Shown piece after piece: positions 11,048-11,123 of a stretch of DNA of 64,000 nucleotides. This DNA comes from Escherichia coli. GTDB taxonomy: Bacteria > Pseudomonadota > Gammaproteobacteria > Enterobacterales > Enterobacteriaceae. The stretch lies in NCBI RefSeq assembly GCF_036507355.1, contig NZ_AP027877.1. One strand, written 5' to 3'. Each line of letters begins with the position of its first letter. Positions within the stretch are counted from its first letter, which is position 1. The position numbers were made by a program, and so were the translations under genes. The notes under the pieces were generated by a model, which was given only the letters and a program-made list of their open reading frames with translations, did not search any database and had not been told where the DNA came from.

Positions 11048-11123
11048 GGCCCTTTAGCTCAGTGGTTAGAGCAGGCGACTCATAATCGCTTGGTCGCTGG
11101 TTCAAGTCCAGCAGGGGCCACCA
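11048..11123 (+). tRNA. ileY: tRNA-Ile2 (anticodon CAU, lysidine-modified class; ileY/ileX type), 76 nt including CCA
   Basis: ggccctttagctcagtggttagagcaggcgactCATaatcgcttggtcgctggttcaagtccagcaggggccacca; cloverleaf with 7-bp acceptor stem, anticodon loop cuCAUaa. Confidence 0.9.

What the first reader, a model, noticed from the sequence alone, without database searches (positions are those of the whole stretch)
11048..11123. tRNA-Ile2 acceptor stem carries a U6-G67 wobble pair
Folding the gene as read gives acceptor pairs G1-C72, G2-C71, C3-G70, C4-G69, C5-G68, U6-G67, U7-A66. I recall the K-12 sequence as having C at position 6 (a fully Watson-Crick stem), but that is from memory. The acceptor stem contributes to recognition by TilS and IleRS, so a variant here in a gene embedded in an IS1-flanked accessory segment is worth a check.
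Basis: partly seen in the sequence, partly recalled or inferred. Interest (0 to 1): 0.2.

Follow-up and report, generated by a model that had tools for sequence, protein, structure and literature searches.

The report
Natural wobble-pair allele of tRNA-Ile2 (ileY)
The U6·G67 wobble pair is really there, but it is an ordinary, inherited minority allele of the dispensable E. coli tRNA gene ileY, at a base pair that the enzymes reading this tRNA are not known to use, so it is not surprising.

Summary
Window 11048-11123 (+) is a 76-nt tRNA with a CAT anticodon.

K-12 ileX is C6-G67 and K-12 ileY, the gene at this locus, is U6-A67. The window therefore differs from K-12 ileY at position 67 (G instead of A), not at position 6. 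It is the single-step G·U intermediate between the two Watson-Crick paralog states.

- **Frequency:** the exact 76-nt allele occurs in 147 complete E. coli records, against 1,727 for U6-A67 and 5,022 for C6-G67. About 107 genomes also share the window's flanks at 99% or more, so it is inherited and not a sequencing error.
- **Ancestral state:** C6-G67 was the state in all 120 loci sampled from other species, nearly all Enterobacterales.
- **Recognition:** 6:67 is not among the published IleRS or E. coli TilS determinants, and all of those are intact here. The wobble costs about 0.3 kcal/mol relative to K-12 ileY.
- **IS1:** both copies are real, but they are insertions into the native low-GC ygaQ–ileY–ypjCB–ypjA locus. 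They do not form a composite transposon.
- **Side finding:** integrative elements targeting ileX/ileY supply a G67 3′ half. In strain 14EC017 this turns U6-A67 into exactly this allele. The window shows no trace of such an element.

Low interest.

The parts
11048..11123 (+). ileY-locus tRNA-Ile2 gene with a CAT anticodon (would become LAU after lysidine modification), 76 nt with encoded CCA. Allele U6·G67.
   Evidence: ARAGORN. RF00005 at 71.6 bits. Identical to K-12 ileY except G67, and to K-12 ileX except U6. RefSeq annotates identical copies as tRNA-Ile.
11053..11053 (+). tRNA position 6 = T (U6). Same as K-12 ileY; ileX has C.
   Evidence: Alignment A1. U6 was found in all 13 ileY-locus genes read: the window, K-12 and MDK6L1, nine sampled loci and 14EC017. 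Other genomes with the exact allele at this locus also carry it.
11114..11114 (+). tRNA position 67 = G. This is the actual difference from K-12 ileY (A67) and it creates the U6·G67 wobble.
   Evidence: Alignment A1. G/A polymorphism among ileY loci.
8308..9075 (+). IS1 copy 1, a simple insertion into the ygaQ-like alpha-amylase pseudogene, flanked by an 8-bp duplication ATATTTTG.
   Evidence: 769-nt identical run with copy 2, with ends and flanks read directly. InsA/InsB-sized ORFs. Direct repeat D1.
15654..16421 (+). IS1 copy 2, in the same orientation and 100% identical. It has no target duplication. It truncates ypjA on one side and a recombinase gene on the other.
   Evidence: The same ypjA-IS1 junction is annotated in MDK6L1.
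9076..10488 (-). Fragment of the ygaQ-like alpha-amylase family (pseudo)gene upstream of the tRNA. This is the native left neighbour of ileY.
   Evidence: ORF 8995-10488. Synteny with annotated K-12, MDK6L1 and 042.
11874..13223 (+). ypjCB-like ORF (449 aa). This is the native right neighbour of ileY.
   Evidence: ORF list. Synteny with the ypjCB / DUF5507 annotation.
14030..15658 (+). 5' part of the ypjA/ehaD-like autotransporter gene, cut off by IS1 copy 2.
   Evidence: ORF list. Annotation of syntenic hits.
17522..18832 (-). Integrase of the island integrated at ssrA. It lies next to the 3' end of the tmRNA gene, so it belongs to ssrA and not to ileY.
   Evidence: ORF translation. MDK6L1 annotation 'integrase domain-containing protein' next to ssrA.
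18918..19280 (-). ssrA (tmRNA), tag ANDENYALAA. Serves as the chromosomal landmark.
   Evidence: ARAGORN.

Best explanation
The gene is the E. coli ileY copy of tRNA-Ile2, the AUA decoder whose C34 is converted to lysidine by TilS. It carries a naturally segregating allele in which acceptor pair 6:67 is U·G. tRNA-Ile2 across the other species sampled is C6-G67, K-12 ileY is U6-A67, and the window allele is the one-step wobble intermediate between them. In this genome G67 is simply one of many SNPs that separate an old, divergent ileY-locus haplotype from the K-12-type haplotype. That is inference from the flank data. The tRNA is predicted to fold, to be lysidinylated and to be charged with Ile normally, because every published determinant is intact and 6:67 is not one of them. 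That too is inference; no biochemistry was done. Because ileY is a dispensable second copy, any small effect would matter little. The two IS1 elements were inserted later into neighbouring pseudogenes and have nothing to do with the allele.
For: **Identity and structure**
- tRNA calls. The cloverleaf has 21 pairs, all standard or G·U.
- Three-way alignment: the window differs from K-12 ileY only at position 67, and from ileX only at position 6.

**Locus**
- The flanks are homologous to the K-12 ileY locus.
- The gene order glaH–ygaQ–tRNA–ypjCB–ypjA–…–ssrA matches annotated genomes.

**Population**
- The exact allele is in 147 records, against 1,727 for U6-A67 and 5,022 for C6-G67.
- 107 genomes share the 481-bp haplotype at 99% or more, and they are the same accessions that hold the exact allele.
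- U·G occurs on at least 3 different flank haplotypes.

**Ancestral state**
- All 120 cross-species loci are C6-G67.

**Energetics and score**
- Cloverleaf ΔG is −30.1 for U·G, −30.4 for U-A, −32.8 for C-G and −29.4 for C×A.
- RF00005 gives 71.6 bits for the window, 73.8 for K-12 ileY and 73.1 for ileX.

**Literature**
- K-12 ileX and ileY differ only at positions 6 and 67. ileY can be deleted; ileX cannot (PMC11480407).
- E. coli TilS uses pairs 4:69 and 5:68. Inverting 6:67 is tolerated by Burkholderia TilS (PMC11947777).
- The bacterial Ile identity set lacks 6:67 (PMC9976931).
Against: - No expression, modification or charging data exist for this allele.
- The simple σ70 scan found no good promoter just upstream. 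The same is true of the near-identical K-12 upstream region, and K-12 ileY alone does not sustain growth.
- Tolerance of changes at 6:67 was measured on Burkholderia TilS with pair inversions, not on E. coli TilS with a wobble pair.
- The direction of change is not resolved. G67 could be ancestral in ileY or a reversion from A67. The locus is recombinationally mosaic, and no ileY-type locus was found in the cross-species loci to serve as an outgroup.
Confidence: 0.85

Rival explanations
1. Recombination scar (att hybrid). G67 was imported when a phage 186-like or CP4-like integrative element inserted into a U6-A67 ileY and replaced the 3' half of the tRNA with its own G67 copy. The element was later lost in a way that kept G67.
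For: - Phage 186 attP carries tRNA positions 31-76 with G67, and its annotated crossover lies in the anticodon loop.
- In 14EC017 the exact window allele is the attL hybrid of a 36.5-kb element. The attR partial tRNA retains A67 plus the K-12-type flank.
- HB-Coli0 has the same tRNA-proximal element genes after the tRNA; its far end was not examined.
- EC22 shows a related hybrid with a variant T-arm.
- ileX and ileY share an attB (PMC8767318; PMC3448106).
Against: - The window has the native ileY 3' flank directly after CCA.
- There is no second partial tRNA copy anywhere in the 64 kb.
- No integrase is associated with ileY. The nearby integrase abuts ssrA.
- Site-specific excision, with its crossover 5' of position 67, would restore A67. 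Keeping G67 would need a crossover within the last 9 bp.
- The window's flanks differ from the K-12 type at many sites on both sides, so G67 looks like one more haplotype SNP.
Confidence: 0.1
2. Decaying gene. ileY is redundant and drifting toward a pseudogene, and the wobble is one symptom of relaxed selection, so this copy contributes little or nothing.
For: - ileY is absent from about 46% of complete genomes and can be deleted in K-12, where it cannot replace ileX.
- Some ileY alleles carry damaging changes: G22C, which breaks C13-G22, and an A28×C42 mismatch.
- tRNA diversity (7 of 76 variable sites) is of the same order as the flanks (60 of 405).
Against: - The window allele itself has no broken pair and all identity elements.
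- It scores 71.6 bits, within about 2 bits of K-12 ileX and ileY.
- Most stem changes among ileY alleles preserve pairing, for example U50-A64 and A28-U42.
- From my own knowledge, not checked here: K-12 ileY is used in commercial codon-supplementation plasmids.
Confidence: 0.04
3. Sequencing or assembly error at window 11114.
For: None specific. It is a single-base difference from the K-12 type.
Against: The identical allele is in 147 independently assembled complete genomes, and 107 share the surrounding haplotype. It is a substitution, not a homopolymer-length change.
Confidence: 0.01

Closest known systems
E. coli K-12 ileY (b2652), tRNA-Ile2 (CAU)
   Same: Same chromosomal locus (ygaQ–ileY–ypjC/B side of the ssrA region), same orientation relative to its neighbours, and 75 of 76 bases identical including U6.
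   Different: Position 67 is G instead of A, so pair 6:67 is U·G instead of U-A. The flanks differ by about 4%. The window's interval between ileY and ssrA is about 7.8 kb with two IS1 copies. In K-12 it is about 30 kb according to my recollection of the ssrA coordinate, which was not retrieved here.
E. coli K-12 ileX (b3069), the essential tRNA-Ile2 gene
   Same: 75 of 76 bases identical, including G67 and all TilS and IleRS determinants.
   Different: Position 6 is U instead of C. ileX lies at a different locus (mug–ileX–nfeF). The ileX-type sequence was the only form seen in the 120 cross-species loci sampled.
attL hybrid tRNA-Ile2 genes created by ileX/ileY-targeting integrative elements (phage 186; CP4-like / SpLE1-like elements)
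   Same: The 76-nt sequence is identical to the attL tRNA of 14EC017 and HB-Coli0: U6 from the chromosome and G67 from the element.
   Different: The window has no element after the tRNA, no attR partial copy and no ileY-associated integrase.

Membership tests
tRNA-Ile2 (CAU→LAU; ileX/ileY family) | Canonical tRNA cloverleaf detected by covariance model | tested here: met
   RF00005 at 71.6 bits against a gathering score of 29. ARAGORN. All 21 cloverleaf pairs are standard or G·U.
tRNA-Ile2 (CAU→LAU; ileX/ileY family) | CAU anticodon with the Ile2 acceptor pairs C4-G69 and C5-G68 (E. coli TilS determinants), not the tRNA-Met pairs U4-A69 and A5-U68 | tested here: met
   Sequence read directly. 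Determinants from PMC11947777 and PMC9976931.
tRNA-Ile2 (CAU→LAU; ileX/ileY family) | IleRS identity elements A73, C4-G69, U12-A23, C29-G41, A35, U36, A37, A38 | tested here: met
   All are present in the sequence (pair list). The identity set comes from PMC9976931.
tRNA-Ile2 (CAU→LAU; ileX/ileY family) | C34 actually converted to lysidine and the tRNA charged with Ile | not testable with these tools
   Needs biochemistry or tRNA-seq.
ileY ortholog (as opposed to ileX or a phage-borne copy) | Position between the ygaQ-like pseudogene and ypjCB, near ssrA | tested here: met
   Flank homology to K-12 ileY. Synteny with MDK6L1 and 042.
IS1 composite transposon carrying the tRNA | Two IS1 copies bracket the segment | tested here: met
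   8308-9075 and 15654-16421, direct orientation, 100% identical.
IS1 composite transposon carrying the tRNA | Matching target-site duplication at the outer ends of the pair | tested here: not met
   Copy 1 has its own duplication, ATATTTTG, on both of its sides. Copy 2 has none. The outer flanks differ.
IS1 composite transposon carrying the tRNA | The bracketed segment is foreign to the insertion site | tested here: not met
   Strain 042 has the same gene order with no IS1 annotated in the 7-kb stretch examined. K-12 shows the same tRNA neighbours without IS1.
att-hybrid tRNA left by an integrative element | Element DNA directly 3' of the tRNA, a partial tRNA direct repeat (attR), and an associated integrase | tested here: not met
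   Native flank after CCA. Only one match to the tRNA 3' half in 64 kb. The only nearby integrase abuts ssrA.

The most novel reading that the evidence does not exclude
ileY may be a within-species example of stepwise compensatory evolution of a tRNA. At 6:67 the path would be C-G to U·G to U-A, and at 28:42 it would be G-C to G·U to A-U. Integrative elements that use the shared ileX/ileY attB would accelerate this by repeatedly overwriting the tRNA's 3' half, from the anticodon loop onward. This creates chimeric tRNAs such as U6·G67 and T-arm variants. On this reading, the window allele on native flanks is either the surviving ancestral intermediate or a fixed scar of such a swap.
Probability: 0.3. 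Interest if true: 0.3.

Novelty: already known. Interest (0 to 1): 0.1.

Why it matters
It matters little for the question as posed. The allele is a neutral-looking polymorphism at a base pair outside the published recognition sets, in a redundant gene.

Two points are modestly useful:

- **Annotation and comparison:** ileX, K-12 ileY and this allele form a C-G / U·G / U-A series. 'Variants' must therefore be called against the correct paralog.
- **Allele typing:** the identical tRNA allele can arise by descent or by element integration, as the 14EC017 attL/attR pair shows. tRNA allele typing at att sites can therefore mislead. It also offers a natural set of tRNA-Ile2 variants for testing TilS and IleRS tolerance.

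Tried and rejected
- **Shigella origin.** Suspected because no complete E. coli genome matched 6000-20000 better than about 96-97% and IS1 is present. Rejected: an IS1-junction-specific ORF equals BED21289.1 of an E. coli 4.64-Mb genome.
- **Exact protein look-ups.** Two look-ups intended to retrieve the source contig found nothing.
- **ileY-type locus in other species, for use as an outgroup.** BLAST of the window flanks against the 120 cross-species loci gave no hit.
- **Unconstrained MFE folding.** It gives a non-cloverleaf structure for all three alleles. I evaluated the fixed cloverleaf instead.
- **Promoter scan.** No convincing σ70 site lies just upstream, and the number found was no greater than in shuffles. 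I drew no conclusion about expression.
- **Phage collection search with the tRNA.** It mostly returned phage-borne full-length tRNA(CAT) genes. The informative case, the phage 186 attP, had to be fetched by accession.
- **Exhaustive count of ileY-locus alleles.** Not possible with the tools. I sampled 13 loci instead.

Full report
**Observation.** ARAGORN places a 76-nt tRNA with a CAT anticodon at exactly 11048-11123 on the + strand. Rfam's tRNA model scores it 71.6 bits (E=4e-15, gathering score 29). The sequence is GGCCCTTTAGCTCAGTGGTTAGAGCAGGCGACTCATAATCGCTTGGTCGCTGGTTCAAGTCCAGCAGGGGCCACCA. Threaded on the standard cloverleaf, the acceptor pairs are G1-C72, G2-C71, C3-G70, C4-G69, C5-G68, U6·G67 and U7-A66.

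**What it differs from.** I fetched both K-12 MG1655 tRNA-Ile(CAU) genes and aligned them with the window (A1). The three sequences are identical except at positions 6 and 67:

| Gene | Pair 6:67 |
|---|---|
| K-12 ileX | C6-G67 |
| K-12 ileY | U6-A67 |
| Window | U6·G67 |

The window's flanks are homologous to the K-12 ileY locus. The gene order is glaH – ygaQ-like alpha-amylase pseudogene – tRNA-Ile – ypjCB – recombinase fragment – ypjA – … – integrase – ssrA – smpB, matching annotated genomes. So this is ileY. Relative to the proper reference, position 6 is unchanged and the variant base is G67. [quoted passage not shown] The paralog difference is therefore published.

**How common is it?**
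- Exact 76-nt matches among 5,423 complete E. coli genomes: C6-G67 in 5,022 records, U6-A67 in 1,727 and U6·G67 in 147.
- A 481-bp probe covering both flanks shows that the ileY locus is present in 2,913 genomes. In 107 of them the probe matches at 99% or more, and these are the accessions that carry the exact allele: O145:H28 strains, O169:H41, O157:H7 TR01 and others. Strain 042 also carries the exact allele with the native flank.
- The allele is thus inherited with its haplotype in several lineages, which excludes a sequencing error.

**Ancestral state.** All 120 are C6-G67. U6 is therefore derived. The only single-step path from C-G to U-A that keeps a pair is through U·G. The alternative C×A is the least stable form (cloverleaf ΔG −29.4, against −30.1 for U·G, −30.4 for U-A and −32.8 for C-G). 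All 13 ileY-locus genes I read have U6, and position 67 is G or A. The window allele is the classical wobble intermediate. Whether it is the retained ancestral ileY state or a reversion cannot be decided. The locus is a recombination mosaic, with 67 variable columns in 482 among 11 genomes, and U·G sits on at least three flank haplotypes. No ileY-type locus turned up in the other species sampled.

**Function (inferred).**
- The bacterial Ile identity set is A73, C4-G69, U12-A23, C29-G41, D-loop residues and positions 34-38 (PMC9976931).
- E. coli TilS relies on pairs 4:69 and 5:68. In Burkholderia TilS, inversions at 5:68, 6:67 and 7:66 retain robust activity (PMC11947777).
- All of these determinants are intact in the window gene, and 6:67 is not among them.
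- The covariance score drops only about 2 bits relative to K-12 ileY (73.8) and ileX (73.1).
- ileY can be deleted in K-12, whereas ileX cannot.

I therefore expect a functional, near-neutral allele. This is not shown experimentally.

**The IS1 context.**
- Two 768-bp IS1 copies lie at 8308-9075 and 15654-16421, in direct orientation and 100% identical.
- Copy 1 is flanked on both sides by ATATTTTG, so it is a simple insertion into the ygaQ-like pseudogene.
- Copy 2 has no duplication. It truncates ypjA on one side and a recombinase gene on the other.
- The outer flanks of the pair do not match. IS1-free genomes keep the same gene order. This is not a composite transposon that brought in the tRNA.
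- The region is nevertheless low-GC, 32-39% over 9-14 kb, and is missing from about 46% of E. coli genomes, for example ST131. It is accessory in the pan-genome sense.
- The window comes from E. coli. An IS1-junction-specific ORF equals BED21289.1 on a 4.64-Mb contig.

**A second route to the same allele.** ileX and ileY share an attB used by phage 186 and by SpLE1-like elements (PMC3448106; PMC8767318).
- The phage 186 attP contains tRNA positions 31-76 with G67. Its annotated crossover lies in the anticodon loop.
- In strain 14EC017 a 36.5-kb CP4-like element lies directly 3′ of ileY. The full-length tRNA (attL) is identical to the window allele. The partial tRNA at the far end (attR, next to the integrase) has A67 followed by the K-12-type flank.
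- HB-Coli0 has the same tRNA-proximal element genes directly after the tRNA; its far end was not examined.
- EC22, and the ileX locus of JB2, show a related hybrid with a compensated T-arm variant, U50-A64 with A59 and C60.
- Integration therefore converts U6-A67 into U6·G67.

In the window, the tRNA is followed by the native flank. There is no second copy of the tRNA 3′ half in the 64 kb. The only nearby integrase abuts ssrA. Site-specific excision would restore A67. I rate this route at about 10% for the window.

**Verdict.** This is a real but ordinary allele of a known, dispensable tRNA gene. Its reference comparison and its functional concern are not. Interest is low, about 0.1. The hypervariability of ileY and the overwriting of its 3′ half by integrative elements are more interesting than the wobble itself, but they build on known att-site biology.

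Noticed in passing
ileY-locus tRNAs in loci L125-L133 (E. coli genomes; equivalent to window 11048-11123): ileY is very polymorphic within E. coli, while the ileX-type sequence was the only form seen in the other species sampled. Variants seen:
- G15A and G22C (G22C breaks the C13-G22 pair).
- G28A with C42U, which gives an A28-U42 compensated pair. O157:H7 has the G28·U42 intermediate, and strain 98192 has an A28×C42 mismatch.
- U43C, which turns G27·U43 into G27-C43.
- U44C.

This amounts to several stepwise compensatory series at one locus.
   Followed up: partly
L139 (E. coli 14EC017) 356-431 and about 36827-36873; also L137, L133, L134: Integrative elements inserted at ileY or ileX replace the tRNA 3' half. 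In 14EC017, attL has G67 and attR has A67. EC22 (ileY locus) and JB2 (ileX locus) carry an element-derived T-arm variant: C50U, G59A, U60C, G64A. Genomes like JB2 probably account for the roughly 280 records whose best match to ileX is only 90-95%.
   Followed up: partly
window 15654-16421 and flanks: IS1 copy 2 lacks a target-site duplication. It joins a truncated ypjA to a truncated recombinase gene (ORF 16400-17239), which implies an IS1-mediated deletion of island DNA. MDK6L1 has the same ypjA-IS1 junction but then ParB genes and a full recombinase. The two direct IS1 copies, 7.3 kb apart, could also delete the ileY segment by homologous recombination.
   Followed up: partly
window 17522-19280: A P4-type integrase ORF lies directly next to the 3' end of ssrA (tmRNA, tag ANDENYALAA). 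This is a remnant of a CP4-57-like island at ssrA, and the interval from ileY to ssrA is only about 7.8 kb. My recollection is that K-12 has about 30 kb here; I did not retrieve the K-12 ssrA coordinates.
   Followed up: no
window 11316-11337: A GC-rich hairpin (8 pairs) with a T-run on the minus strand and an A-run before it on the plus strand, about 200 nt downstream of the tRNA. It looks like a terminator for a minus-strand transcript or a bidirectional terminator.
   Followed up: no
window 46670-46745: tRNA-Glu (TTC) on the + strand. Its distance from ssrA suggests the spacer tRNA of an rRNA operon, possibly rrnG/gltW. That identification is from my memory of the K-12 map and was not checked.
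   Followed up: no
window 11048-11123: ARAGORN labels the gene tRNA-Met because of the CAT anticodon. Many phage records likewise annotate close relatives as tRNA-Met. This is a routine mis-annotation of tRNA-Ile2.
   Followed up: yes
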